Below, piece by piece: positions 16,620 to 46,201 of a DNA stretch of 64,000 nucleotides (positions are counted from its first letter, which is position 1; the number at the start of each line of letters is the position of its first letter). The position numbers were made by a program, and so were the translations under genes. A model generated the notes under the pieces. It saw only the letters and a program-made list of their open reading frames with translations. It was not told the DNA's origin and searched no databases. Origin of the DNA: Sulfolobales archaeon HS-7 (GTDB lineage Archaea > Thermoproteota > Thermoprotei_A > Sulfolobales > Sulfolobaceae); NCBI GenBank assembly GCA_019704295.1, contig AP024596.1:2048001-2112000 (forward strand), given 5' to 3'.

Positions 16620-16670
16620 AAAATTAGTGCCGCGGCCGGGATTTGAACCCGGGCCACAGGCTTGAGAGGC
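16620..16670 (-). repeat. att repeat (3' portion of tRNA-Glu), left boundary
   Basis: 51 bp identical to 46105-46155. Confidence 0.95.
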
Positions 16671-22392: not shown

Positions 22393-24294
22393 GTGATGAG
22401 TTCAAAAGTAGCTAAGAAAAAGAGGGAACTAAGCCCAGCTGTCTGGTATGAAGTGATAGGAACTCCTTTCTTTCTTGAAGAAGAGAAGCAGAGAGACCAG
22501 CTTCTTAACGACTTCGCTACCGAAATTAAATCGCATAAATACACGGTAGCGTGGGCAATCGGCAAAAAAACACAGATAGAGATAGAGGAGGGATACTTAA
22601 GAAACTCAACCGAAAGTAAATTCTATTTAGGATTTCTAGAGCAAGATGAAAAGCCGATATTATTCAAATATATTAATAGGCATAATACACTCCCAGAGCC
22701 ACGTAAAGAAATAGATTATGTTACAGATACATATATAAAATTTAAGGACGGAACTTATGGACAAGTAGTATGGCTTGCTGGATTTGAAAAACTAGTACTC
22801 GAGGGAATCCTCAGCGTCATCTATCCGCTCGATATTTCGCCATCACAGACAGAAGTGTTTTTAGAAGTAACTACGGATGATGGGAGCGGAAAATTCGAGC
22901 AACGCTTCAGGAGCTATTTAGGTAGTATACTCAGCAGATCAGCTAGGTACATAGCGCATACGAATATCAGCAGTAACTTGCTAGAGCTTAAGAACAACGC
23001 GGATGACTTACAGTCTAGGATAAACGAAGGGAAACAACCAATAGCGATAAGGGGATTTGTTACTGTTATTGATAATGACATTAGCAGTTTAGAAGCTGCA
23101 ACTGAAAAAGTGCAGTTTCAGTTGAATCGATTCGGTGTGAAAACTAAACTACTGAAGAAAATACATTTCATCTTCTATCAGCTAAAGCACGATAGGTTTC
23201 ATGCTTACTGGAAGTATACTACTAACAACTATGCGGCATTACTGTATCCTTTCGGCGTCTTCAGGATTGAAGAACAAGATAGTATCTTTTTGGGATATGA
23301 CAGGATTTCTGGAAACCCGATCTATATCAACCCATGGCTTACTGGAATTTGGAAAACTAACCCTCACGGTCTTATCACTGGTTTATCAGGCAGCGGAAAG
23401 ACTACCACCGCTGGAGTTTTGATTTATCGCGCAGTTAAGAAATATGATCCTTATATATATGTAATCGACCCGATGAATAACTTTTCTAAGTTTTTCCAAA
23501 AATTTGAAATTCCAGCAAAGATAATCACTCTTGAAAAAGAGAAGCCTATGGGACTGGATCCTGTCAAAATCGCAATGAACTCTGGAGGTGTGTTATCAAT
23601 TAACGATTTTGTAGGGATTTTACTAAGCAGTTATAATATTCCACCTCAAGGTAGAGGATTTGTTAAGAAGGAATTAGAAAGTAGTGAAAACACGGAAGAA
23701 GCCGTAGATAGAATCTGTCAGAAAGACGCTGAGATATGTAAGTATGCACAGGATATGGTTACCGGATATGACAGAAATATTTGGGCAGGGGAAGGAATAG
23801 ATTTCGTTTCAAAGAGAATAGTGATCAACCTCGGTGATATGCCAGATTATATGAGGAAAATAGTAATGACACTTCTAACGGCTTCTACTAGAGCAACGCT
23901 TAACAGAATTGATAGAAAAAGTTACAAACCCGTTTTGATGGATGAGGCACACAGGATCTTTGATGATGAATCTTCAGCTTACTTTGTAGAGAAACTGTAC
24001 AGGGAAGGTAGAGCTTTACACGCCTCGACGTGGACCATTACACAGTCAATCCGTGACTATTACTATAATCAAAGAACTGAGACGATACTAACACAAGCAG
24101 AAACCCAAATCTTGATGAACCATGACGGGAGTGAGAAAGATGCCCTGCAGAAGGCTGGCTTAAATGATGAAGAGATAGAATTTCTGACGAACAATCCAGG
24201 GCGGGGCCAGGGAATATTACGGTTAGGAAGTATCAAGACTTTCGTAAATGTGACATTGACGGAAAAAGAACTCGAGGTGTTGAGAACTGAGTAG
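22393..24294 (+). CDS. VirB4/TrbE-like conjugative ATPase
   Basis: NPHGLITGLSGSGKTT Walker A, IDP, MDEAH Walker B, REGR, TQS, GQGIL. Confidence 0.9.
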   Translation: MMSSKVAKKKRELSPAVWYEVIGTPFFLEEEKQRDQLLNDFATEIKSHKYTVAWAIGKKTQIEIEEGYLRNSTESKFYLGFLEQDEKPILFKYINRHNTLPEPRKEIDYVTDTYIKFKDGTYGQVVWLAGFEKLVLEGILSVIYPLDISPSQTEVFLEVTTDDGSGKFEQRFRSYLGSILSRSARYIAHTNISSNLLELKNNADDLQSRINEGKQPIAIRGFVTVIDNDISSLEAATEKVQFQLNRFGVKTKLLKKIHFIFYQLKHDRFHAYWKYTTNNYAALLYPFGVFRIEEQDSIFLGYDRISGNPIYINPWLTGIWKTNPHGLITGLSGSGKTTTAGVLIYRAVKKYDPYIYVIDPMNNFSKFFQKFEIPAKIITLEKEKPMGLDPVKIAMNSGGVLSINDFVGILLSSYNIPPQGRGFVKKELESSENTEEAVDRICQKDAEICKYAQDMVTGYDRNIWAGEGIDFVSKRIVINLGDMPDYMRKIVMTLLTASTRATLNRIDRKSYKPVLMDEAHRIFDDESSAYFVEKLYREGRALHASTWTITQSIRDYYYNQRTETILTQAETQILMNHDGSEKDALQKAGLNDEEIEFLTNNPGRGQGILRLGSIKTFVNVTLTEKELEVLRTE

Positions 24295-26189: not shown

Positions 26190-26756
26190 CTTAAGAAACA
26201 GTCTGAATAAAGATACACCTTTTTTATAATATTCTTCATTTATTCTTACTTTTTCTGGCGGATGACTCCAAAATATCCAGTGTAATAGTAGTCCAAGTTT
26301 ATTCTTCTCTAGTTTAATCGGAGTATACTTTCGTCCTGTGATTTCATAAGCGAAAATATCAGCTCTTCTCTCTTCATTTTTCTTACGCCACTTTACTATG
26401 ATGAACATAACAAAAGCCGTCAGCCAGTTCCATGGTAAGCTTAGCAAAAATAGGGGAAAGATTACTACTGATGTCAGTAAAGGATCAAGTAAGAAATTAT
26501 CATGGATTAAATGTCCCAGTTCATGATAATATGCCGCCTTATCTTCTTCAATTCCTCTATAGAGAATTTTCTTTCCATTTAACATCTTATAGGAAAAATA
26601 ACCGCGTGCGGGACACTCATAAAACTCGATATTAAAGAGGGATCGCTTAACGCAGATAGACTGTTTAGCGTCTCTATATGCCCTAATCTCACTTTGTAGC
26701 ATTAGAAATAGAAATGCTCCCGTATAAGTTATTACTACAAGTATGGTTTCCATCAT
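26172..26756 (-). CDS. M48-like membrane Zn metalloprotease
   Basis: HELGH, EERRADIFA, SHPP..R. Confidence 0.8.
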   Translation of the reverse strand: MMETILVVITYTGAFLFLMLQSEIRAYRDAKQSICVKRSLFNIEFYECPARGYFSYKMLNGKKILYRGIEEDKAAYYHELGHLIHDNFLLDPLLTSVVIFPLFLLSLPWNWLTAFVMFIIVKWRKKNEERRADIFAYEITGRKYTPIKLEKNKLGLLLHWIFWSHPPEKVRINEEYYKKGVSLFRLFLKSLFSN

Positions 26757-26785
26757 TTTTAACAGTTTTAAAAAATAGAGGAAGA

Positions 26786-28699
26786 ATGAGCTATCCTAAC
26801 CACCATACTATACAGAGAATGAGTGTGTTAATCGTAGGAATAATATTAGTGCTAGGAATAGTAGCAATGCTTGCAAATTATAAGCCCTCTCAGACTGGAC
26901 CTATCGCTATCCAAAATCCTTCACCGACGATAACAACACCTCCCCTGAACGTCACTCCTCCTAAACTGAACATAACTAATTTCACTGCGACTTACAGTTT
27001 TACTAATGCAGTAGAATCGCTTAATGCTACAGACATCTATACTTTCAATTCTACTAAGTTGCTTGAGTTTGAATACGCATATAACCCGCTTGCGTCGACT
27101 GTAGCTGATATACTTTCACTTTCAGCTAGCCAGGTAACGCCGTGGACTTATTCTGAATTATATAACATTTTAGACTCTAAATACACTCATTGGACTTCTA
27201 CTAGAACAGTGTCAATGTACTATTATCCGATGAACATGAGCATGAACACGATATATCTGAATTTTGCATTTCAAACTAATCCTCAGTTTGTTAATGCTTA
27301 TGAACAATTAAATAGAAATTATCCGTTTCCACCTTCAGACAATATCACGGTAAACTCCCCAGTTTACCGCATAATTAACAAAACTTCTGTAACAACTAGC
27401 GTAAATGTTCAATTTAGCAATTATACATATTTAATATATAATTATACTTACAAGAGCGGCAATACGGTATATGAATATTTATATTATGACTCGTCCGTAG
27501 AGGGATACGCTTATCTTTATGCTAATAATCAACTGATAAATTCTCAATATTTCTATTATAACTTCTACTGGTGGGGTGGGAGTTACACTAACACGCTCTA
27601 CGGTGAAGTAACAGTTCCACCTGGCATGATGAAACAAGTTTACGCAGATTACACTATCTTAATGTCACCTGGTTATGGTTTTCAAGAAAAACAGCAGGGG
27701 AATGTAACTTACTACATTTACAAGTATTATCCAGCAGGGCCATACGTATCAATGTTAGGTTATATGTTTAATTGGTACGAATATAATGTATTGTTACAGA
27801 TAAAAATTCTAGTTTATAATGGTAGTAATCCAGTAACTTACGTTAATAACCAGACCTATAACTCTAGAACTATTAACGTAATAGTTTCATATAATGTATG
27901 GAGTTCAGACCCTAAAACTTATACAAATACTATAAAAACACTAGACCATATAATGTTTTTAAAGTATAATTTAACTAGAATATGGCACGCAGGGAGTATA
28001 ACAATTAACCCGACCTGTTATATACAACAAATCGGAAATGCCGTTAATTATTATCTTAATTTTAACATACAAAATGATATTATCGAACCGCCTTCATACA
28101 TTTTCCATCCAGTTCATCAACTGAACGAAACGACAGTGCTGCAGTGGAGCTACTTCCTCAATAACTATATTGTTGTCAAGGGGCTGTATAACGCAGTGCA
28201 CGAAAACATAGACGAATTCAATTATATCCTTCCACAGTTTGTAACATCTGTCTATAAAGAGAATCTAACATTGCGTACGATAACTATAGCTAGCTTTATT
28301 GAGCCATGGAATGTTTCCCAGGTGACCCTAAACGTATCTGGCGTCTTAGCAAAAAGTAATATGATCTTTATTCCAGTCAATATAACACCTAATACTTCAT
28401 ATAGTATAATCTATTCCGCGCTGGGATCTATTTATACAATACCCAACGTGACTTTACTAAGCTATGAATGGAATAATATGACGGGATCTGGGTACTTTCC
28501 ACCTTTAGTCGAGAACGAACTGTACAACGGAACTATTCCACCTCCAATCTATGCTCCATTCATGAAAAATATAGTGTTGAACTACGGATACTATTGGCCA
28601 TATCGACTACCTTATGTAGAATTTTCGATTCAACAATTACAGAAAAATTACGAATATTGGTACAACCCCGCATGGCCTGGCTGGTTCCCAATAAGCTAA
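26786..28699 (+). CDS. Membrane-anchored Tyr/Asn/Thr-rich surface protein of the transfer region
   Basis: N-terminal TM, many N-x-S/T sequons; start placed at MSYPN. Confidence 0.75.
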   Translation: MSYPNHHTIQRMSVLIVGIILVLGIVAMLANYKPSQTGPIAIQNPSPTITTPPLNVTPPKLNITNFTATYSFTNAVESLNATDIYTFNSTKLLEFEYAYNPLASTVADILSLSASQVTPWTYSELYNILDSKYTHWTSTRTVSMYYYPMNMSMNTIYLNFAFQTNPQFVNAYEQLNRNYPFPPSDNITVNSPVYRIINKTSVTTSVNVQFSNYTYLIYNYTYKSGNTVYEYLYYDSSVEGYAYLYANNQLINSQYFYYNFYWWGGSYTNTLYGEVTVPPGMMKQVYADYTILMSPGYGFQEKQQGNVTYYIYKYYPAGPYVSMLGYMFNWYEYNVLLQIKILVYNGSNPVTYVNNQTYNSRTINVIVSYNVWSSDPKTYTNTIKTLDHIMFLKYNLTRIWHAGSITINPTCYIQQIGNAVNYYLNFNIQNDIIEPPSYIFHPVHQLNETTVLQWSYFLNNYIVVKGLYNAVHENIDEFNYILPQFVTSVYKENLTLRTITIASFIEPWNVSQVTLNVSGVLAKSNMIFIPVNITPNTSYSIIYSALGSIYTIPNVTLLSYEWNNMTGSGYFPPLVENELYNGTIPPPIYAPFMKNIVLNYGYYWPYRLPYVEFSIQQLQKNYEYWYNPAWPGWFPIS

Positions 28700-28858
28700 G
28701 TCAATTTAATTTTTTATCAGTAAACTGGGGAGTTATTTCAAATTTTCTTACGTTCTTCTTCTAACGTTAGGATCCTTCCTCATATACTTAACAATTTTTT
28801 AACATTCAATGAGAATAATCAATATATCATTTTTAAATACTATTATCTCTGAGGCAAA

Positions 28859-30823
28859 GTGAAGCTAGATAAGAAAAAGAAACTAATCAAACAAATCTGG
28901 TTAGCTTTCTTCATTATTCTAATAATGAATAATGTAATATCTGATACATTGCTAGTATTTGGCCAAGCACCCCCAGGGCCTAACCCCTTCTATGGATATC
29001 TTCCAGAACTAGTTCCGCTTGGATATCTGCTTGCAGGTGTATTATTCATATTAGGACTAATAGCATACAGAAAAGACTTCAGCTACGCAATCGTACTGAT
29101 TAGTGCGGCGGCCCTAGTAGCAGGATTATTGAATTATGCAGTAGCGTCAACGGGAGGAGTGAATGGCAATATTTTACACGTAGTTCCGGTTCAAGTCCAA
29201 ATAACAGTCAAATACAACGGTCAAATAGTGGCAATTTATCCGGAATCCAATATAGGGAGTTTTGAAGCACCGTTAAACCAAAAATACACCGTCACAGTGA
29301 CTACTAATCCTCCCACTCCTATCTCTGAATTTCTATTTTATGAAGGACAAACCATATTTTTCAACGATTCCGGGCAAACTTCGTATAGTTATACATATGT
29401 AACTTCACCGGCTTTCGCAGGAACTAATACGTTAATTGTTGAAGTTAGTCATGTTAAAGGTAATACTCTCTACTACGGTTACGGATACGTCGATTTCCGG
29501 TATTTGCCAAAAGCGGGAGGTATATATGAAGACGTATTAGCGGCCTTGATGGTGGTATCCGGAATAAGCGCATTTACTGGGGGTTCCGGTACACAATTAC
29601 TAAGCGGGGCAATAGGTGGTGCAATAAATAACTTTGTGGTCACGCCAACAATAGGTGGAAACGGAGCGAGTGGCCAAGCAGGGAACTTCTTCTTCTATTT
29701 CCAAGAGTTAGCGGAAGCAATAGGGTTTGTATTCATAGCCCTGGGAATAGGAATTAATGCCATCAGAGGTGGATACAGCGATATGGTAGATTTAGGCATG
29801 GATTTCTTCTATAGAACAGGAATTTTTCTGTTATTTACCTACGGAGGGATACAGATATTTAACGCAATAGCAAATTCGCTAAATCAGATATCAGAGTATA
29901 TAGTTTCGTCACAGATAGGACCAATCTCAAATGTACTAGCACTATGGACAGAACTGGGAATAGGTCTTCTCACAGGCGCTAATTTCATCGGATTTGGTCT
30001 GGGAAGAACGCTCGCTAGTTTAGCTATGTTCATCTTCGAAGTTGATATCGCTATCTTCTCGATAAGCTATCTGAGAGTAGTGTTGATCTACGCTTTGGCT
30101 AGCATGATCCCTCTAATAGCAGCTCTCTGGACGTTTGAATGGACTAGAGGGATTTCATTGGCTCTAACGGAAATTCTCGCAGGATTAGTGTTTGGAGGTC
30201 TATTAGACGCGTTGATCCTTTATTTCCTAGTACAGGTTGGAGGATTAGCCTTCTTTGCCTTTGCCCCAGCCGCTCTAATCGCATTCTTCATGACGGGGTG
30301 GGGAGCCCATCAAATGGTAAAATCTGTCGGGCTTTCATCGTCGTCCAGAATAAACCCTGGTTATACTCCATCTGGAGGGTCAGGATCTGGAGGATCAGGG
30401 AGTCAGCAAGGGAGGCAACAAACCCAAAACGTTCCGGTCACGCAGATAGTTACGCCACAACAAGTTCCTCAACAACAAGTTACGCCACAACAAGTTCCTC
30501 AACAACAAACAGTTTCCACGCAAGATGCTATACAGCAGTTAGGAGAAGCCACTACACTGAGGCTAGACAATGGAAGTAGATACGCGACTATAACAGCAGT
30601 AAGAGGAGGTTATCAAATCACCAAGGGTATGAGGACAAGTTCCGGGGAAGTTGAGAAGACTTATGTCATCCCCGCTAAAGCTAGCATTACAGAGGTAGCC
30701 CAGGGTGTACAAAAGAACTTTGTAAATAAGACGCCCCCAGAAATAAATCCAGAACTTATGGGGCAATTACTTAGATCGGTCGAAAGTAACAATATAAATA
30801 ATGAAAGCGTTAAATTAGGATAG
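28859..30823 (+). CDS. VirB6/TrbL-like polytopic conjugation membrane protein
   Basis: ~10 TM segments, extracellular beta domain, G/S/Q-rich linker, next to the coupling ATPase cluster. Confidence 0.7.
   Translation: MKLDKKKKLIKQIWLAFFIILIMNNVISDTLLVFGQAPPGPNPFYGYLPELVPLGYLLAGVLFILGLIAYRKDFSYAIVLISAAALVAGLLNYAVASTGGVNGNILHVVPVQVQITVKYNGQIVAIYPESNIGSFEAPLNQKYTVTVTTNPPTPISEFLFYEGQTIFFNDSGQTSYSYTYVTSPAFAGTNTLIVEVSHVKGNTLYYGYGYVDFRYLPKAGGIYEDVLAALMVVSGISAFTGGSGTQLLSGAIGGAINNFVVTPTIGGNGASGQAGNFFFYFQELAEAIGFVFIALGIGINAIRGGYSDMVDLGMDFFYRTGIFLLFTYGGIQIFNAIANSLNQISEYIVSSQIGPISNVLALWTELGIGLLTGANFIGFGLGRTLASLAMFIFEVDIAIFSISYLRVVLIYALASMIPLIAALWTFEWTRGISLALTEILAGLVFGGLLDALILYFLVQVGGLAFFAFAPAALIAFFMTGWGAHQMVKSVGLSSSSRINPGYTPSGGSGSGGSGSQQGRQQTQNVPVTQIVTPQQVPQQQVTPQQVPQQQTVSTQDAIQQLGEATTLRLDNGSRYATITAVRGGYQITKGMRTSSGEVEKTYVIPAKASITEVAQGVQKNFVNKTPPEINPELMGQLLRSVESNNINNESVKLG
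30448..30507 (+). repeat. 30-bp perfect tandem duplication (VTPQQVPQQQ x2)
   Basis: AGTTACGCCACAACAAGTTCCTCAACAACA twice. Confidence 0.9.
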
Positions 30824-32445: not shown

Positions 32446-35400
32446 ATGTATGAACTACTTCTAAGAACGGATATTGACTATAAGAAGCTTAAAATAACTG
32501 ACATTTTTACTCATTCTTTCAAAATATATTATTATAACGACGGCGAATACACTCATATCTATCTGGACTCTAACGCGGATCAAAGAATTCTGCAGCAGTA
32601 CTTTGCAGTAAAGCCCTCCGATTTTAATCCATACAATTTTAAGTACTGGACGGAAATTATACCTGATATAGAGAACGATTTCTATTATAAGTTACATTAT
32701 AACAGTTTAGATAATTTCATAAGCAGCTCTCTGCAAAAGGAACAAATATTATGCATTCTGGCGAGCATTGATAATAAAATAAATAGGGAATTTCTTAGGA
32801 GGTCTCATAAACTTAAAGACAGACAAACTAGGGATGCACAAGTACAAAGACAACAACTAGAAAGCTTTGCTAAGGACACACTATACTCTATTAGATTAGT
32901 CCTACTAAGTAATGAACTTGGTAGTCTGTTAGACACTGCATATAAATTAGCCTCTTACGTAGTAACTAATTCTAACAATATTGGAGTAAAGACATTATTC
33001 GGCAAGCCATTAAGGACAGTATATCCTAACTCATGGAAGGCCTTCTTAAGTCTTGAAGATTATGAATATGACAACGACTTTGCACAAATAAGAAGATTAG
33101 ATTATAAGAAGAGGTTATGGGCTACACAAGACGACTTACAATACTTAGTTACGTTCCCGACCACAGTAAAGATTCCCTTAGGGCTATCAGTAACTCTTCC
33201 TTACTATAAGTTAGAAAGAAAGCCCGAAATATGCATAGGTAAAGACTTGGTTTACGGTGAGGAGGTCTGCTTAGAGCCCATAGACTTCATAGGCCATGCT
33301 TTCTTTTTCGGGGCATCAAGGTCTGGGAAAAGCAATACCTTAGAGGTAATAGCTAAACAGCTGAAAAACTACGGAGTAGTAATATTTATTGACCCTAATT
33401 CACAATCTGCACGTAAATTATCGCAGATTGCGGACATGTACTTTTCAATTACTAAAGAGAAACCAAACTTCGGGCTCAACATATTACAATTACCTCACAT
33501 TTTTGAAGACCGTAAGAAGAACATAGACTACCAAATAGCGAATGTCTTGGAACTCTTCGATAAGCTGCTACAATTACCGGAGAACGCTCCAAACGTCAGA
33601 TACATACTCCAGGTACTCCTTTATCAGATGTACAAACTTACGGATAACGTAACATTCCAAGATGTATATAACGCGGTTATTGACCTCTATAACGGGAATT
33701 TAGACCTTGACGTTAATGATGAGCAGTTTCAAAAGGAAGTGGAAATGTTGCAAAAGATGCAGCCGCAATCCTTCTTCTCTATACTGACTAGGATAAAGAT
33801 GTTAGTAGAGAATGACACTTTCAAATACATAACTTCCGAAACAACACTGGACTGGGAAAAGTTAATCCCTAAGTTAAAGAAAGGGCTGATAGCATTTGAT
33901 GTAGGGAAATCGTCTGGGGAAATAGTCAGTCAGACCGTTCAAATGATGATCGCGTTATCTCTCTTTTACTACGTATTCAGAAGGGATCAGAGAGGGGAAG
34001 ATAAAATACCCATATACTTCGTCGTTGACGAAGCCCAGAACATTGCGCACTTCAGTTTTCTAGGGGATATTCTGGCTGAAGCTGCAAAGTACGCTTTGCA
34101 CTTGATCCTGGCAACACAGAGTTACGTCAGGTTAATGGACATGGCAGGGGAAGGAAATGCAAGAGGCCTGATGGCCAATACTAACGTTAAGCTAGTAATG
34201 AGGATAGTAGAAGGTAACGACGCTAATGAGATCGCAAAATCTGCAGGGTTAAAGGAATTCGTAGACGTGTTCCCGAAGTTGAGTAGGGGTATGGGTTTCC
34301 TAACAATTGGCGGAAAGCCGGGTGAACTGAGTGCAATAAAGTTTATTCAAGTAAATTACAGCGGACTGGAGGATAAGGAAGGAAAGCTTACGGAAGGGTT
34401 TGAGCCCAAGATAATTGGGTCTCAGGACATCGCAAAGATGCTTAATCCAATTCTACAATTAATAGAGAAAAAACCGGAACCATTAGAGTTGGTCATTCTT
34501 TATAGGACATTCAGGAACGGAAAGAAGATCTACATGCCTGATTTATTGAGGGAGCTAGGAGTGGATAGAGATAGGGTGGAGGACGCAATTAACAAACTTG
34601 CAGCCGCTGGGATGATAGATGTAACTAAGGAAGGTAACAAAAAGGCCATAATTTACGTTAAGGGTTTATTCCCATTAAAGCACGTAGTTGAGAATGAAGA
34701 GGGCAAGAAGGTAGCACTCAGGGTAATTAAGAAATATTACGATAAAGGGTATATCGTAATTCCGGGCAGACAGCAGGGAGATATTAGAGCCGATTTTCTC
34801 GCCCTCAAATACGATAGTAGCTATAAACTAAAATACGATGACGTGATAGCAGCGGAAATAGAGAGTCCCAACGAGCTATCTGTACATGCGGAACAGGTAG
34901 TAAGGAACATGAAGAAGTATAATGAGTTACCTAACGCTGCAAAGGACAGGATTGCCGAGATCCACATATGGACGTCTGAGGAGGCTTATCCTAAATTAGA
35001 GAAAGCCTACAAGAAGTTCTTAGAAGATAATACAATAGATGAGAGTTACAAAAACAAAGTGAAGATATTCTCTATAAAGATAAAAGAGAAGGCTGAACCG
35101 AAAGTACAGCAGCCACAGCAGAAAATAAGGAAGCCTAACACGTCAACTGGGGAGTTTACCCAAGCTAAACAGGTCGAGAGACAGGAAGTCCGAAGCGAAA
35201 GTAAAGTTGTAACTAACGCTCCTAGCGCTGCTACTGGTAATAACAATAATGAAGAAGGGGAAGTGTCAGAGGGACCAGAGCAAGAATGGGAGATACTAGA
35301 GCCTAAGTCAGCGTTAACTCCTCAGTTAATAACGCTAGCACAGTTAGAGCTTCAGGTAATAGATATGTCCAACGGTAAGGCGATTATTAAGGTCAGCGAT

Positions 35401-35544
35401 AAGGAATATAGGATAAATATTAAGGACTTAGAGGACCTGCAGGGCCTGAGAGACATGATAACTGAAGCAAAAATAGACAACAACTGCCTTAAGGTAAAAA
35501 CAAGCCTAGGCCTCACTCAAAAGATCGTTTTGGAGCCCTTATGA
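32446..35544 (+). CDS. VirD4/TraG-like coupling ATPase with C-terminal wHTH and nuclease-like domain
   Basis: FGASRSGKSN Walker A, IDP, VVDEAQN, LATQS; 1032 aa. Confidence 0.9.
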   Translation: MYELLLRTDIDYKKLKITDIFTHSFKIYYYNDGEYTHIYLDSNADQRILQQYFAVKPSDFNPYNFKYWTEIIPDIENDFYYKLHYNSLDNFISSSLQKEQILCILASIDNKINREFLRRSHKLKDRQTRDAQVQRQQLESFAKDTLYSIRLVLLSNELGSLLDTAYKLASYVVTNSNNIGVKTLFGKPLRTVYPNSWKAFLSLEDYEYDNDFAQIRRLDYKKRLWATQDDLQYLVTFPTTVKIPLGLSVTLPYYKLERKPEICIGKDLVYGEEVCLEPIDFIGHAFFFGASRSGKSNTLEVIAKQLKNYGVVIFIDPNSQSARKLSQIADMYFSITKEKPNFGLNILQLPHIFEDRKKNIDYQIANVLELFDKLLQLPENAPNVRYILQVLLYQMYKLTDNVTFQDVYNAVIDLYNGNLDLDVNDEQFQKEVEMLQKMQPQSFFSILTRIKMLVENDTFKYITSETTLDWEKLIPKLKKGLIAFDVGKSSGEIVSQTVQMMIALSLFYYVFRRDQRGEDKIPIYFVVDEAQNIAHFSFLGDILAEAAKYALHLILATQSYVRLMDMAGEGNARGLMANTNVKLVMRIVEGNDANEIAKSAGLKEFVDVFPKLSRGMGFLTIGGKPGELSAIKFIQVNYSGLEDKEGKLTEGFEPKIIGSQDIAKMLNPILQLIEKKPEPLELVILYRTFRNGKKIYMPDLLRELGVDRDRVEDAINKLAAAGMIDVTKEGNKKAIIYVKGLFPLKHVVENEEGKKVALRVIKKYYDKGYIVIPGRQQGDIRADFLALKYDSSYKLKYDDVIAAEIESPNELSVHAEQVVRNMKKYNELPNAAKDRIAEIHIWTSEEAYPKLEKAYKKFLEDNTIDESYKNKVKIFSIKIKEKAEPKVQQPQQKIRKPNTSTGEFTQAKQVERQEVRSESKVVTNAPSAATGNNNNEEGEVSEGPEQEWEILEPKSALTPQLITLAQLELQVIDMSNGKAIIKVSDKEYRINIKDLEDLQGLRDMITEAKIDNNCLKVKTSLGLTQKIVLEPL

Positions 35545-35974
35545 TTTTTTCCTTCAAGCTATCTATTTGCTCGGGTAGGAAGAAATAGACGTGCTTATCA
35601 TCCCCTAGGATCTTGGCTTTCAATATCACCTTTTTCTTTACCAAACTCCAAACAATGTATCTGATATACGATATATCTTGTGTCTTTGCAAAGTACTCTT
35701 TAATTTCATTATCTCTTGCAATAAGCTTGAGTATTATCTCCTTTTCACTTAAAAAAGGCTCTTCTCTCAGAATTTCAACTATCCTATTAGCAATTTTAGC
35801 ATTTAACGATCTTACTTTCTCCGGCATTACTAAAACATAAGAATCTTCACTTTCCTTACTCTTTTTAGAGATTGTTTTCCTTTTCTCAGATTTCCTTTCC
35901 TCTACTTTACTTTCTTTTCCTTTCTCTTCTTCTAAATTATTATTTAATTGATTAGGAGTATTTTGTTCACTCAA
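35513..35974 (-). CDS. wHTH DNA-binding plasmid protein next to the origin region
   Basis: IVEILREEPFLSEKEI..YIVWSLVKKKVILKAKI. Confidence 0.7.
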   Translation of the reverse strand: MSEQNTPNQLNNNLEEEKGKESKVEERKSEKRKTISKKSKESEDSYVLVMPEKVRSLNAKIANRIVEILREEPFLSEKEIILKLIARDNEIKEYFAKTQDISYIRYIVWSLVKKKVILKAKILGDDKHVYFFLPEQIDSLKEKIIRAPKRSFE

Positions 35975-36040: not shown

Positions 36041-37560
36041 TATATCAATGCTAGCTAGAAGATTACTAAAGATAGGGTATAGTATATCAATGCTATGTTA
36101 TTGTATATATTTGCCAGGGCATTGTAGGGTTTTCATCTCTATACCCCCAAATCCCCCTTTTTCTCTAACTCTCTTTCTAAAATTCTAACTAATCCAACAT
36201 ACTCTCTAAACCAACTCACTAACTCAGCTCCTAATCCAAAACCACAACTCTAACTCAAAACTCCCAAGTTCAACAATTAACTCAAAACTTAACACCCTCT
36301 ATTCTTACTTTTCTCTTTACTACTCTTCTAATCTAAGTAACTCTTTCTCTTACTCTGTCTAAACAGCTCTTAACTCTGTCTGTTTCTCTTTGCTCTGATT
36401 GTCTCCGTCTAACTCCGACTTCTTCTGTCTAAACAGCTCTTTCTCTCTAATCTATTCTTTAACTCTATTCAACTCTATCTTTTCAGTCCCCGTTTACTTC
36501 TGTCTATACATGTGTTTCCGTCCTTTGCTTACTCTCTAACTCTTCTAATCTTACAAACTCCCTTTTCTCTGTTACTCTATTATGGGCTCCAACCCTTCCT
36601 CTCTTCTTTCCCTTCTTCCTTCTTTCCCCCTTTACTTCCATTACTTCCTCTATTTCTTTCAAACCCTCTAAGGTTTTCTCCCTCTTCTCTCCTTTCCTCG
36701 AATTCGCCTCAAAGAGACTCCTATATCCTCAGTAGTACCGTCTCTTGTACCCTTTGTTCTAGTCTTAAACTGGGCTCTTATCCCTTTCACTTATCCTAAA
36801 AAGCCTTAGACCCAACTTCCTCGTAAGGATCTACCAATCCCAAAAACTTTCTGGACGTATTTTCCTCCTTAACGCGTCACACAGGGTCTATACGCATTCC
36901 ACAGGATCCTGGACCTACACACCTACTGACTTTTTACAGTATAAGGACCATTGCCCTGGATTTCCTCTATAGCTTTCGCTATCTTCATCACGAACCCGTA
37001 AAGATTCTAAGATTACCGTCACCTTACAAAAAGAACGTGCTATCACATACACATCCTTAACCCCGCTAATCGGTAGTTCTCCTCTTTAGACAATCTCCTT
37101 CTATAAGGGACTCACGCCCCTTAACCCCTTTTCTTTCCTTAACTCCTCTATAGCTTCCGCCTCGGTTTTTCCTCCCTCTGTTAATTGGTATAGGTACTCC
37201 CCTCTTTACAGCATCGTATCTTACTGCGAATCCGTAAAAGTAAAGGTCCTCTAAGATTGCCTCAGCTCTCTCCTAACAAAAACCCATAGTTCTCAAATGT
37301 GCTATCGTATGCACGTCCTTGACCCCACCCATCCTCATCAGGAAGAGCAGTATGTCTTCTTCTCCTCTTTGCATAGATAACCTCCTTCAATATTTCATTA
37401 AAAAGTATAAGGGGCTCACGCCCCTTAACCCCTTCTCTTTCTTCATGTTTCAAATCATCTAAGGATTCCTTCTATCTATCATTGGGTCCTTTCTACATAT
37501 CCTTCTTTCAACCCAACACAGTATAAGGGGTTTCACCCCTTAACCCCGCCAAAACCTCTA
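36041..37560. other. Putative replication/transfer origin region
   Basis: 1.5-kb non-coding stretch with TATATCAATGCTA x2, TCTATACCCCC (36138), a G-poor tract, and degenerate repeated units with hairpins. Confidence 0.6.
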
Positions 37561-44472: not shown

Positions 44473-44753
44473 TGGAATTGCAGCAAGTAGTAATTCCTAA
44501 GATTACTGTTTCAAAGATGAGGAAGAAAAGCGGGGAGCTTTACTATACGTATTTACCCCAGAGCTTCACAGCGTATCTAGAGGGTAAAAAGTGGAACGTA
44601 ATAGCCACAGTAAACGATAAAGAGGTCCCTTTGGGACCTAGATCTCCGTTCCGCCACGGCCGTAATTTGATTATAACTCTCCCATTAGCCTACAAGGACT
44701 TATGGGAATCACTTTTAGGTAAGGAAATAGACTTAATCTTTTTGAAGATCTAA
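44469..44753 (+). CDS. AbrB-like swapped-hairpin protein
   Basis: YYTYLP..IITLP duplicated AbrB pattern. Confidence 0.65.
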   Translation: MMELQQVVIPKITVSKMRKKSGELYYTYLPQSFTAYLEGKKWNVIATVNDKEVPLGPRSPFRHGRNLIITLPLAYKDLWESLLGKEIDLIFLKI

Positions 44754-46000
44754 AGCAGCCTAGGTGAATATTTGTCGTAAATCTGTTGTAATTCTATATC
44801 CGATATTACGAAGTAATGGTCCTGCAAGATTTTGAACTGCTGCGGGGGAGCTCTACCCTGGAGGATATTGACCAGCATCGGGCTCACTCCCTGCTTCAGC
44901 ATATACGATGCCCAAAAACTCCTTATATCATAAAGTCTGAACTCTTTGCCTAGCACTTTCTTCATTGCTTGTTTAATCGAATATCTTATATCTTGGAGTT
45001 GGAAGGGGAACAGCTTACTCTTCCACTTCTCTACATCTTGCCCTATCCCCCTAACCGCAGGCTCATATCTTTTTATAAATTCTTCTCTATAGGGTAAATA
45101 GACGTCTTTCAGATATTCTACAGTTTTCGAATGAATAAAGCAAATATATGCTCTTTTCGTCTCATTCTCTTTAAGCAGCTTGATTACTCTGTGCTCTAAG
45201 TCCGTTTGTTCCATAGTTATATTGTAAACCTCCCCTGTCCTCAACCCCGTTTCACATAATAATAAGAAATAGGCCTTAGCTCCCCGGTGTTCTGTCGCGT
45301 CAAATATTTTCTTCAAAGTTTCTATGTTGAGGTTTTCCGGTCTGTGCTTGTACTTTCCCTTAGGTACTGTAAACGAGGAGTAAAGTAAATGTGCTAATCC
45401 AGGGTTTTTCTCCCTGAAAACCGTCTTTATAAACAGTTTTAACGAGTTCGCCATATGTCTTGCGACATTAGGGCTATCTGCTTCTATTAATATCTCCCTA
45501 ATTCCGTCAGGCGACAGTTCATAGCTCAGTTCAGATAGGGCTCTCTTCAGATATCTCATACGCATATCCCTAGTACTTTTGGACTTATTGTTTAGTAATG
45601 TCTCGAATTTCTTCACATCTTCCTCGCTTACGATATACGTGCTTGTAGTTGTCCTTAAGTAGTCCCCCATATACTGGTACAGTAACGTTATGAAGAAGTT
45701 TCTAAAGCCCTCATCTCTTAGCGCCTTCACTATAACACTTAATGCGACCGTCGGGTCTACATCTATCGTTTTCAGTCCGTATAGTGAGTCGCTTAGCTCT
45801 TCAACACTGAGCATCTCTGCAGCGTTAGTTATTATTTCGTCCTGGATCCTCCTTACTTTACCCGCAACATACCTGTATAAAGTACTTCTATCAATTCCCA
45901 ACTTTTGTGCAACGTAACTTAACCCGTATTTTTCTACAGTTTTCTTTAATATTCGTATTTTTTGCTCACTGTCAAGTTTATTTACGTCAATCTTTACCAT
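44750..46000 (-). CDS. int: pNOB8-type tyrosine integrase (intact)
   Basis: N-terminal HTH; ETGLR, YDIR, LQGR, DHY catalytic residues; start placed at MVKID. Confidence 0.92.
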   Translation of the reverse strand: MVKIDVNKLDSEQKIRILKKTVEKYGLSYVAQKLGIDRSTLYRYVAGKVRRIQDEIITNAAEMLSVEELSDSLYGLKTIDVDPTVALSVIVKALRDEGFRNFFITLLYQYMGDYLRTTTSTYIVSEEDVKKFETLLNNKSKSTRDMRMRYLKRALSELSYELSPDGIREILIEADSPNVARHMANSLKLFIKTVFREKNPGLAHLLYSSFTVPKGKYKHRPENLNIETLKKIFDATEHRGAKAYFLLLCETGLRTGEVYNITMEQTDLEHRVIKLLKENETKRAYICFIHSKTVEYLKDVYLPYREEFIKRYEPAVRGIGQDVEKWKSKLFPFQLQDIRYSIKQAMKKVLGKEFRLYDIRSFWASYMLKQGVSPMLVNILQGRAPPQQFKILQDHYFVISDIELQQIYDKYSPRLL

Positions 46001-46104
46001 AGTCTCATATTCTATTATTAGACTTACACACTGTTGCAAAAATATCCTTCGCTGTTGCAAATGCCTTATCTTTGTAGAGAATGTATCTCCCTTAAAATTA
46101 ACGT

Positions 46105-46155
46105 AAAATTAGTGCCGCGGCCGGGATTTGAACCCGGGCCACAGGCTTGAGAGGC
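46105..46155 (-). repeat. att repeat, right boundary (within tRNA-Glu)
   Basis: Identical to 16620-16670. Confidence 0.95.
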
Positions 46156-46201
46156 CTGCATACTTTCGGTGCAAGACTTGACCGGGCTATACTACCGCGG
46201 C
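46113..46201 (-). tRNA. tRNA-Glu(CTC) with 14-nt non-canonical D-arm intron
   Basis: GCCGCGG acceptor stem, CT-CTC-AA loop, TTCAAAT T-loop; extra CTTGCACCGAAAGT in the D-arm. Confidence 0.92.

What the first reader, a model, noticed from the sequence alone, without database searches (positions are those of the whole stretch)
34470..35090. Coupling ATPase carries a fused wHTH + D..ExE nuclease-like domain: candidate for the missing relaxase
Seen: after the VirD4 ATPase core come a winged helix (MPDLLRELGVDRDRVEDAINKLAAAGMI) and GY.V......ADFLALK-x~15-IAAEIES..E. Known: MOBC / Replic_Relax relaxases combine a wHTH with a PD-(D/E)xK-fold domain bearing D..ExE, and to my knowledge no relaxase has been assigned for pNOB8-family plasmids. 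No HUH relaxase is evident in this att-bounded element. Inference: a single polypeptide may both nick oriT and couple DNA to the secretion channel.
Basis: partly seen in the sequence, partly recalled or inferred. Interest (0 to 1): 0.78.

Follow-up and report, generated by a model that had tools for sequence, protein, structure and literature searches.

The report
Archaeal conjugation ATPase with built-in nuclease
The DNA-pumping "coupling" ATPase of this integrated archaeal conjugative plasmid carries a conserved DNA-binding domain plus a restriction-enzyme-like nuclease domain, which makes it a concrete but unproven candidate for the DNA-cutting enzyme (relaxase) never found in archaeal conjugation.

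Summary
ORF 32446-35544 (1032 aa) is the pNOB8-type TraG/VirD4 ATPase of a 29.5-kb integrated element bounded by 51-bp att repeats.

Residues 679-737 fold as a winged helix. Residues 745-880 fold as a PD-(D/E)xK nuclease core (AlphaFold pLDDT 88). Nearly all of the top 50 structural matches are restriction-type nucleases, with Z up to 8.6.

The putative site is D783, E804-x-E806 and K824. It is almost invariant in 106 further 50%-identity cluster representatives, including the VirD4 of the proven Thermococcus conjugative plasmid pT33-3. The domain is fused to a VirD4-type ATPase in 8 of 9 long relatives checked, and lies next to one in a split form.

No known relaxase family occurs in the element, and PF13814 is absent from the genome.

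Kinship with MOBC relaxases is not shown. There is no PF13814 hit and hhalign gives 4-5% probability. MOBC TraX does share the architecture and the D...ExE motif, and the nearest two-domain Atlas fold is a Replic_Relax-tagged cluster (TM 0.46-0.49).

Nuclease activity and any nicking role are inferred only. Reviews up to December 2025 say no archaeal relaxase is known. This scan had already noted the same fusion in at least six other genomes.

The parts
32446..35544 (+). traG: 1032-aa TraG/VirD4-like coupling ATPase of a pNOB8-type element
   Evidence: ORF. Full-length homologues include pNOB8 (P0015), pING ORF1042 (P0021), A. hospitalis (P0008) and S. islandicus (P0009, P0012).
32446..33231 (+). 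N-terminal domain (res 1-262), no family match and no transmembrane segment
   Evidence: No Pfam hit. The highest 19-residue hydropathy is 1.5. It is conserved within the family.
33295..34290 (+). VirD4/TrwB/HerA-type P-loop ATPase core (res 284-615), Walker A K295, Walker B D528-E529
   Evidence: Pfam TraG-D_C, TrwB_AAD_bind, T4SS-DNA_transf and DUF87; motifs; invariant columns.
34480..34656 (+). Winged helix-turn-helix (res 679-737)
   Evidence: AF2 model m488265cde890, pLDDT about 97 over this part. Foldseek probability 1.0 to MarR/ArsR-type wHTH proteins. MarR_2 E 2e-4, below threshold.
34678..35085 (+). PD-(D/E)xK (restriction-endonuclease-like) domain (res 745-880)
   Evidence: AF2 model m85d30d90b684, pLDDT 88, topology alpha-beta-beta-beta-alpha-beta-alpha-beta. 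VIA-align Z 8.6 PaqCI, 8.4 AF1548, 8.3 XisH-like, 8.0 NucS, 7.2 BglII; almost all of the top 50 are REase-fold proteins. No Pfam or NCBIfam family.
34792..34794 (+). D783, the predicted catalytic Asp of the (P)D motif at the start of beta2
   Evidence: 93/94 in distant relatives; invariant in A6.
34855..34863 (+). E804-I-E806, an ExE in place of (D/E)xK at the end of beta3
   Evidence: E804 100/102 and E806 98/102.
34915..34917 (+). K824 in the helix after beta3, a candidate relocated catalytic Lys
   Evidence: 97/102 conserved. Its role is inferred.
35092..35544 (+). Low-complexity Q/E/P-rich linker, a small conserved C-terminal domain (to res 1032) and the stop codon
   Evidence: pLDDT below 50 from residue 882 in the model. 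Composition. DNA similarity to the Stygiolobus element stops at 35085.
16620..16670 (+). attL: 51-bp direct repeat
   Evidence: Exact copy of 46105-46155. These are the only two copies in the window.
46105..46155 (+). attR: 51-bp direct repeat overlapping the 3' half of a tRNA gene (46113-46201, minus strand)
44750..46060 (-). Tyrosine integrase of the element
   Evidence: Pfam Phage_integrase 1e-9 plus HTH_3.
22393..24294 (+). TrbE/VirB4-like ATPase of the transfer cluster
   Evidence: Pfam AAA_10 4e-11 and P-loop_TraG.
37102..37547 (+). Three copies of the conserved hairpin TATAAGGGGC-N3-4-GCCCCTTAACCCC (37102, 37406, 37522); candidate cis site (ori or oriT)
   Evidence: Four copies lie at the same relative place in the Stygiolobus element L007. 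This is the only non-coding DNA the two elements share.

Best explanation
The C-terminal module of this archaeal TraG is a metal-dependent endonuclease tethered to the DNA-translocating ATPase. The proposed mechanism has three steps:
1. The winged helix recognises a cis site on the element.
2. The PD-(D/E)xK domain (D783, E804, E806, probably K824) hydrolyses a phosphodiester bond. This is most likely a single-strand nick without a covalent protein-DNA link, as in MOBC relaxases.
3. Because nuclease and motor are one polypeptide, the new DNA end passes directly to the hexameric VirD4-type pump for transfer.

On this reading the protein is a functional analogue of relaxase plus coupling protein.

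Shown here: the fold, the motif, its conservation, the constant association with the ATPase, and the absence of any other relaxase family.
Inferred: catalytic activity, nick versus cut, site specificity, and the link to transfer initiation.
For: 1. Fold. High-confidence models (pLDDT 88) show canonical PD-(D/E)xK topology. Top structural matches are almost all restriction-type nucleases. The best Foldseek hit for the two-domain model is FokI, a wHTH plus cleavage-domain enzyme.
2. Purifying selection on catalytic-type residues in 106 further cluster representatives: D783 93/94, E804 100/102, E806 98/102, K824 97/102, N821 92/101.
3. Association with the ATPase. Of nine long distant relatives scanned, eight carry VirD4/TrwB/TraG-D_C domains and one (P0060) has no Pfam hit. 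One split form keeps the two genes adjacent and overlapping.
4. The domain (E 2e-30) is in the VirD4 of pT33-3 (OX281346.1). This Thermococcus plasmid is proven conjugative, and mutating its VirB4/VirD4 genes abolished transfer (PMC12857230).
5. traG is essential for transfer of the pNOB8-like pM164, and for unidirectional, Hfr-like chromosome mobilisation from the integrated plasmid. That implies a defined start point (PMC9899855).
6. No relaxase family occurs in any element ORF, and PF13814 is absent from the genome.
7. Precedent. MOBC TraX is a wHTH plus PD-(D/E)xK protein with D...ExE...K, forms no covalent intermediate and binds repeats away from nic (PMC12857230). In pTEF1 its gene lies just downstream of the T4CP gene, in the same order as the domains here.
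8. The nearest two-domain Atlas fold is a Replic_Relax-tagged cluster, TM 0.46/0.49 over both domains.
Against: - No biochemical or genetic data exist for this domain in any family member.
- Best Z scores of 8-8.6 are in the range that unrelated models can reach (note). The fold call therefore rests on consistency of the hits plus motif placement.
- The canonical Lys of (D/E)xK is Glu here. From my own knowledge that is BamHI-like. K824 as a substitute is a guess.
- No significant sequence or profile link to MOBC.
- PD-(D/E)xK domains also serve as dsDNA cutters, resolvases and inactive DNA binders.
- Some authors suggest archaeal conjugation moves dsDNA (PMC6563490).
- Nothing ties the nuclease to a specific site.
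Confidence: 0.5

Rival explanations
1. The nuclease makes a double-strand cut that linearises the element, and the FtsK/HerA-like motor then pumps dsDNA. It initiates transfer but is not a relaxase-type nickase.
For: The closest folds are type II/IIS restriction enzymes, which cut both strands. The ATPase also matches the HerA and FtsK families. dsDNA transfer has been suggested for archaeal conjugation (PMC6563490).
Against: Pilus structures led Beltran et al. to argue for ssDNA transfer in archaea (PMC9905601). A double-strand break in a circular plasmid would need end protection and recircularisation, and no such function is evident in the element. The MOBC precedent shows this fold can nick.
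Confidence: 0.15
2. The module works with the ATPase as a HerA-NurA-like resection machine. It degrades or displaces one strand processively to make ssDNA, rather than cutting at a specific origin.
For: The core matches HerA (DUF87). Beltran et al. proposed HerA-NurA as the source of ssDNA for archaeal DNA transfer (PMC9905601). A fused nuclease and hexameric motor fits a processive enzyme.
Against: A conserved wHTH between motor and nuclease suggests site recognition. Hfr-like unidirectional transfer implies a fixed start (PMC9899855). NurA has a different (RNase H-like) fold.
Confidence: 0.1
3. The domain is a catalytically silent DNA-binding, oligomerisation or regulatory module. It would, for example, anchor the motor to plasmid DNA or autoregulate transfer genes.
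For: Many PD-(D/E)xK domains have lost activity. The canonical Lys is absent from the ExK position. JGI annotates one homologue as a MarR regulator.
Against: The acidic triad and K824 are conserved at 95-99% across very divergent sequences, while surrounding residues vary. That pattern is typical of an active site.
Confidence: 0.1
4. It is an active nuclease with a role other than starting transfer. Examples are resolving replication or recombination intermediates, processing DNA on entry into the recipient, or attacking competing DNA.
For: The fold family includes resolvases and repair nucleases (NucS, XisH-like). The conserved hairpin repeats lie in what is called the putative replication-origin section of these plasmids (PMC4390865).
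Against: The strict fusion or adjacency to the coupling ATPase, kept from Sulfolobales to Thermococcus, argues for a function coupled to DNA translocation.
Confidence: 0.1

Closest known systems
TraG (VirD4-like) proteins of crenarchaeal conjugative plasmids: pNOB8 ORF1025, pING ORF1042, the pAH1, pTC1 and pM164 types
   Same: Homologous over the full length (31-69% identity), with the same N-domain, ATPase, wHTH, nuclease-like domain and tail. It sits in a TrbE-containing transfer cluster on an integrase/att-bounded element.
   Different: Nothing essential: this is a new member. In the papers I could search, these proteins are described only as TraG/VirD4 homologues, and the C-terminal nuclease-like domain is not mentioned.
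MOBC relaxases (Replic_Relax, PF13814): TraX of pAD1/pTEF1, MobC of CloDF13
   Same: wHTH followed by a PD-(D/E)xK domain, with an invariant D and ExE motif. The gene lies next to the T4CP gene, in the same order as the domains here. The nearest two-domain Atlas fold is a Replic_Relax-tagged cluster.
   Different: No HMM match and no significant profile-profile similarity. MOBC is a stand-alone bacterial protein of about 260 aa, whereas this module is fused to the ATPase and archaeal. The conserved Lys sits at +4 from ExE in TraX and at +18 here.
BamHI/BglII-type and type IIS (FokI, PaqCI) restriction endonucleases
   Same: Same core fold (Z 5.4-8.6). ExE in place of ExK as in BamHI (my own knowledge). 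FokI and PaqCI also combine a separate DNA-recognition domain with a cleavage domain.
   Different: No sequence similarity, no methyltransferase partner, and it is embedded in a conjugation ATPase.
VirD4 of Thermococcus plasmid pT33-3
   Same: Carries the same nuclease-like domain (E 2e-30) after a VirD4/HerA core, with D, ExE and K conserved.
   Different: It is 1370 aa, euryarchaeal, and its flanks are different and longer.

Membership tests
Archaeal pNOB8-type TraG/VirD4 coupling ATPase | VirD4/TrwB-type P-loop ATPase core with Walker A and B | tested here: met
   Pfam TraG-D_C 1e-10, TrwB_AAD_bind 3e-10 and T4SS-DNA_transf 5e-6, all above cut-off. GASRSGKS at 289 and YFVVDE at 524.
Archaeal pNOB8-type TraG/VirD4 coupling ATPase | Full-length homology to TraG of sequenced Sulfolobales conjugative plasmids | tested here: met
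   24-sequence alignment A1 with 31-69% identity, including pNOB8, pING and the A. hospitalis homologue.
Archaeal pNOB8-type TraG/VirD4 coupling ATPase | Encoded in a transfer cluster with TrbE/VirB4 on a plasmid or integrated element | tested here: met
   TrbE-like 22393-24294, integrase 44750-46060, and 51-bp att repeats at 16620 and 46105.
PD-(D/E)xK nuclease superfamily | alpha-beta-beta-beta-alpha-beta core fold | tested here: met
   Model topology. VIA-align Z 8.6-5.1, with almost all of the top 50 being REase-fold proteins. Foldseek list.
PD-(D/E)xK nuclease superfamily | Acidic residue at the start of beta2 and (D/E)xK on beta3 | tested here: inconclusive
   D783 and E804 are in the canonical places and nearly invariant. 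The K position is E806 (ExE), and the conserved K824 lies on the next helix. No model coordinates were available, so I could not check the geometry.
PD-(D/E)xK nuclease superfamily | Metal-dependent phosphodiester hydrolysis | not testable with these tools
   Needs biochemistry.
MOBC / Replic_Relax relaxases (PF13814) | Match to the family profile | tested here: not met
   No PF13814 hit at E<=1 to 10 for this protein or 88 relatives. No MobC NCBIfam hit. hhalign against a TraX-type alignment gives 0.6-5% probability.
MOBC / Replic_Relax relaxases (PF13814) | N-terminal wHTH plus C-terminal PD-(D/E)xK domain with D...ExE | tested here: met
   for TraG. and PMC12857230 for TraX. A permissive hhalign path puts D, ExE and a later F-x-x-x-H strand in register, but it is not significant.
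MOBC / Replic_Relax relaxases (PF13814) | Fold closer to MOBC than to other PD-(D/E)xK families | tested here: inconclusive
   The top Atlas row is a cluster in which 16% of members carry PF13814, TM 0.46/0.49 over both domains. The language-model lead scores 0.86.
MOBC / Replic_Relax relaxases (PF13814) | Site- and strand-specific nicking at oriT, required for transfer | not testable with these tools
   Needs nicking assays and mutants.
HUH and other known relaxase families | Match to a relaxase profile anywhere in the element | tested here: not met
   Pfam scans of TraG and about 50 further ORFs, element ORFs plus some flanking genes, list no relaxase family. One search showed only 25 of its 27 matched families.

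The most novel reading that the evidence does not exclude
Archaeal TraG is a single-polypeptide relaxase-plus-coupling protein. Its wHTH binds the conserved hairpin repeats downstream of traG, its PD-(D/E)xK domain nicks there without a covalent intermediate, and the fused motor feeds the strand into the channel. This would resolve the missing archaeal relaxase for both Sulfolobales plasmids and pT33-3. It would also show a second, independent use (or a very distant relative) of the MOBC solution.
Probability: 0.35. Interest if true: 0.85.

Novelty: new variant of a known kind. Interest (0 to 1): 0.7.

Why it matters
Reviews from 2019 to December 2025 (PMC6563490, PMC9905601, PMC12282955, PMC12857230) all state that no relaxase is known for archaeal conjugative plasmids. 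It is therefore unclear how DNA is cut and delivered to the channel.

A conserved, apparently catalytic nuclease domain built into the one protein already shown to be essential for transfer turns that question into a few point-mutant and nicking experiments. Genetic systems for these already exist (S. islandicus pM164, Thermococcus pT33-3).

It would also answer a puzzle raised for MOBC and MOBH relaxases: how a nuclease that forms no covalent DNA adduct hands the DNA to the coupling protein. Here the two are physically fused.

Tried and rejected
- Sequence searches of the nuclease domain against Pfam, NCBIfam and PDB sequences, with a single sequence and with profiles A3 and A6: nothing meaningful.
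- CloDF13 (NC_002119) as a source of MobC: the PLSDB annotation lacks mobC, and none of five ORFs matched any Pfam family. I used pTEF1 TraX instead.
- hhalign of TraG profiles against TraX-type MOBC: not significant.
- Homodimer prediction of the wHTH-nuclease module: no answer (score 0.00). It says nothing either way.
- PF13814 search of the whole genome: no hit.
- Catchpole 2023, Francia 2013 and Stedman 2000 are not held in the library. I therefore could not check whether those papers mention the domain. Statements about them come from reviews.
- The search for related loci with the single protein returned only one locus, from Stygiolobus. The hairpin conservation therefore rests on two elements.
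- I considered that the integrase region 39-46 kb is a separate element. I rejected this because only two att copies exist, at 16620 and 46105.
Full report
**Anatomy**

The finding lies in a 3099-nt ORF (32446-35544, + strand) encoding a 1032-aa protein. Its parts are:
- Residues 1-262: a family-specific N-terminal domain with no Pfam match and no transmembrane segment. The highest 19-residue hydropathy is 1.5.
- Residues 284-615: a VirD4/TrwB/HerA-type ATPase. Pfam gives TraG-D_C 1e-10, TrwB_AAD_bind 3e-10, T4SS-DNA_transf 5e-6 and DUF87 5e-5. Walker A is at 289 and Walker B at 524.
- Residues 679-737: a winged helix.
- Residues 745-880: a nuclease-like domain.
- Residues 883 to about 950: a Q/E/P-rich linker, followed by a small C-terminal domain.

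**The element**

A 51-bp exact direct repeat lies at 16620-16670 and at 46105-46155. These are the only two copies in the window. The right copy overlaps the 3' half of a tRNA gene.

The repeats delimit a 29.5-kb integrated element. It carries:
- a tyrosine integrase at 44750-46060;
- a TrbE/VirB4-like ATPase at 22393-24294;
- a PlrA-type regulator, several wHTH proteins and a ParE toxin.

None of about 50 ORFs scanned (element ORFs plus some flanking genes) matches a relaxase family. PF13814 finds nothing in the whole 2.15-Mb genome.

**Fold**

With a 24-sequence alignment, AlphaFold2 gives pLDDT 88 for residues 660-900 and also for residues 738-882.

The first part is a canonical wHTH. Foldseek gives probability 1.0 to AF1382, BpsR, HsmR, SSV1 F-93 and Sso10a-2.

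The second part has the order alpha(751-766), beta(770-773), beta(784-789), beta(795-805), alpha(808-827), beta(836-844), alpha, beta. This is the PD-(D/E)xK core.

An exhaustive alignment to 48,161 PDB representatives puts restriction-type nucleases in almost all of the top 50 places:

| Match | Z |
|---|---|
| PaqCI | 8.6 |
| AF1548 | 8.4 |
| XisH-like 2okf | 8.3 |
| NucS | 8.0 |
| BstEII | 7.5 |
| BglII | 7.2 |

SfsA, Can2, Cdn1, YaeQ, HamA, FokI, BamHI and Bax1 follow lower in the list.

Each Z alone is in the range that unrelated models can reach, as the tool itself notes. The assignment therefore rests on the uniformity of the list and on where the conserved residues fall.

**Active-site pattern**

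D783 lies at the start of beta2. E804 and E806 lie at the end of beta3. The family consensus is:

[RK]-P-D-L-V-A ... A-[IV]-E-[IV]-E-S-x-x-E-x-x-x-H-x-E-[QH]-V-x-x-N-x-x-K ... F-x-E-x-H-x-W

A profile of the domain searched against 1.84 billion cluster representatives found only 108 proteins. Conservation in the 106 that lie outside the starting set was:

| Residue | Conserved |
|---|---|
| D783 | 93/94 |
| E804 | 100/102 |
| E806 | 98/102 |
| K824 | 97/102 |
| N821 | 92/101 |
| E810 | 87/100 |
| H814 | 80/99 |

Mean column identity in an 88-sequence alignment drawn from these hits (A6) is only 28%. Selection is thus focused on exactly the residues a PD-(D/E)xK active site needs.

The ExE in place of ExK recalls BamHI (D94, E111, E113). 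That comparison is from my own knowledge and was not tested here. K824 as a relocated lysine is an inference.

**Association with the motor**

I scanned nine long distant relatives (E 1e-5 to 1e-30, 626-1370 aa) and one short one. Eight of the nine long ones carry TrwB_AAD_bind/TraG-D_C domains upstream of the nuclease domain. P0060 had no Pfam hit.

A 215-aa stand-alone wHTH-nuclease gene (P0117) overlaps the end of a 794-aa TrwB-like gene. Even the split form therefore keeps the pair together.

Contexts of two metagenomic members look like plasmids or integrated elements, with ParB, actin-like partition proteins and methyltransferases.

Most importantly, P0043 (1370 aa, E 2e-30) is encoded on OX281346.1, a 103,230-bp plasmid of Thermococcus nautili. 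PMC13492992 cites this accession as pT33-3. According to PMC12857230, pT33-3 is the only proven euryarchaeal conjugative plasmid, and mutating its VirB4/VirD4 genes abolished transfer.

**MOBC test**

I took the TraX homologue of pTEF1 (annotated "replication-relaxation family protein", L002:18114-18899, typed MOBC). I collected 116 relatives and aligned 27 of them.

Their invariant residues include D152, E170-x-E172 and K176. PMC12857230 states that TraX:
- has an N-terminal wHTH;
- has an active site like restriction enzymes;
- binds five direct repeats 70-120 bp from nic;
- shows no covalent intermediate.

In pTEF1 the T4CP gene lies just upstream of traX, the same order as the domains here.

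Homology, however, is not demonstrated:
- No PF13814 hit for this protein or 88 relatives.
- hhalign probability is 0.6% (A2 vs A5) and 3.9% (A6 vs A5).
- A permissive run aligns D783/D152, E804-E806/E170-E172 and the later F-x-E-I-H / F-x-R-L-H strand in register, but only at 5% probability.

Two weak, non-independent leads point the same way:
- The best two-domain match in the ESM Atlas is a cluster in which 16% of members carry PF13814, TM 0.46/0.49 over 155 residues spanning both domains.
- A language-model neighbour at 0.86 has 11% PF13814.

TraX itself matches the NCBIfam MobC model only at 3e-5. This family is so divergent that a negative sequence test is weak evidence against distant kinship.

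My verdict is that the module works like MOBC in architecture, but membership is not shown.

**Literature**

Four reviews or papers state that no relaxase is known for archaeal conjugative elements: PMC6563490 (2019), PMC9905601 (2023), PMC12282955 (2025) and PMC12857230 (December 2025). PMC4390865 says the same for pTC1.

PMC9899855 shows that traG of the pNOB8-like pM164 is required for plasmid transfer. It is also required for unidirectional, distance-dependent (Hfr-like) chromosome mobilisation, which implies a defined start and direction.

None of the papers I could search mentions a nuclease domain in TraG. Catchpole 2023, Francia 2013 and Stedman 2000 were not available.

This scan had already flagged the same fusion in at least six other genomes. 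My tests were run independently of those notes.

**A possible cis site**

Between this element and a Stygiolobus element whose TraG is 65% identical (L007), DNA similarity covers traG codons up to 35085, exactly the end of the nuclease domain.

Beyond that, the only shared non-coding DNA is a hairpin: TATAAGGGGC-N3-4-GCCCCTTAACCCC.
- Three copies lie here, at 37102, 37406 and 37522.
- Four copies lie in L007, at 10108, 10224, 10355 and 10478.
- All are in the same orientation, 1.2-2 kb downstream of traG.
- Loops vary, and one copy has a compensatory C:G to T:A change in the stem.

This region is the "section B" putative replication origin of these plasmids (PMC4390865). Whether it is an ori, an oriT or both cannot be decided here.

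**Conclusion**

The functional part (relaxase) is a well-founded but untested hypothesis, and MOBC membership is not supported.

I put 0.5 on an active nuclease that makes the initiating cut for transfer, most likely a non-covalent nick. The remainder is spread over double-strand cutting, processive resection, a silent DNA-binding role, and a nuclease role unrelated to initiation.

Noticed in passing
window 37102-37547; L007 10108-10504: The hairpin TATAAGGGGC-N3-4-GCCCCTTAACCCC is repeated 3 times here and 4 times in a Stygiolobus element. It is the only non-coding DNA the two elements share, has variable loops and shows one compensatory stem change. It is a candidate ori/oriT or wHTH-binding array.
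   Followed up: partly
window 36345-36518: Three direct copies of a 29-nt unit (core TCTGTCTAAACAGCTCTT) lie 70-75 nt apart in the strongly C-over-G-skewed (GC skew -0.35), largely non-coding stretch after traG.
   Followed up: no
window 16620-46155: The integrase/tRNA region at 39-46 kb and the transfer cluster at 22-36 kb belong to one 29.5-kb element bounded by a single pair of 51-bp att repeats. They are not two elements.
   Followed up: yes
window 35513-35974 (-): A 153-aa ORF is convergent with traG and overlaps its 3' end by 32 nt. It has no Pfam family. It probably corresponds to the conserved 'ORF142' found next to TraG in pTC1, pAH1, pING and pKEF9 (PMC4390865).
   Followed up: no
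window 32446-33231 (TraG residues 1-262): Unlike bacterial VirD4 proteins, this TraG has no predicted transmembrane anchor. The conserved N-terminal domain has no known family.
   Followed up: partly
L003 2660-5648: In this metagenomic split form, a 794-aa TrwB-like ATPase gene overlaps a separate 215-aa wHTH-nuclease gene by 44 nt, next to an actin-like partition gene.
   Followed up: partly
window 26714-30823: Two large ORFs (661 and 654 aa) in the transfer cluster have no Pfam match. They are presumably the membrane components of the archaeal mating apparatus.
   Followed up: no
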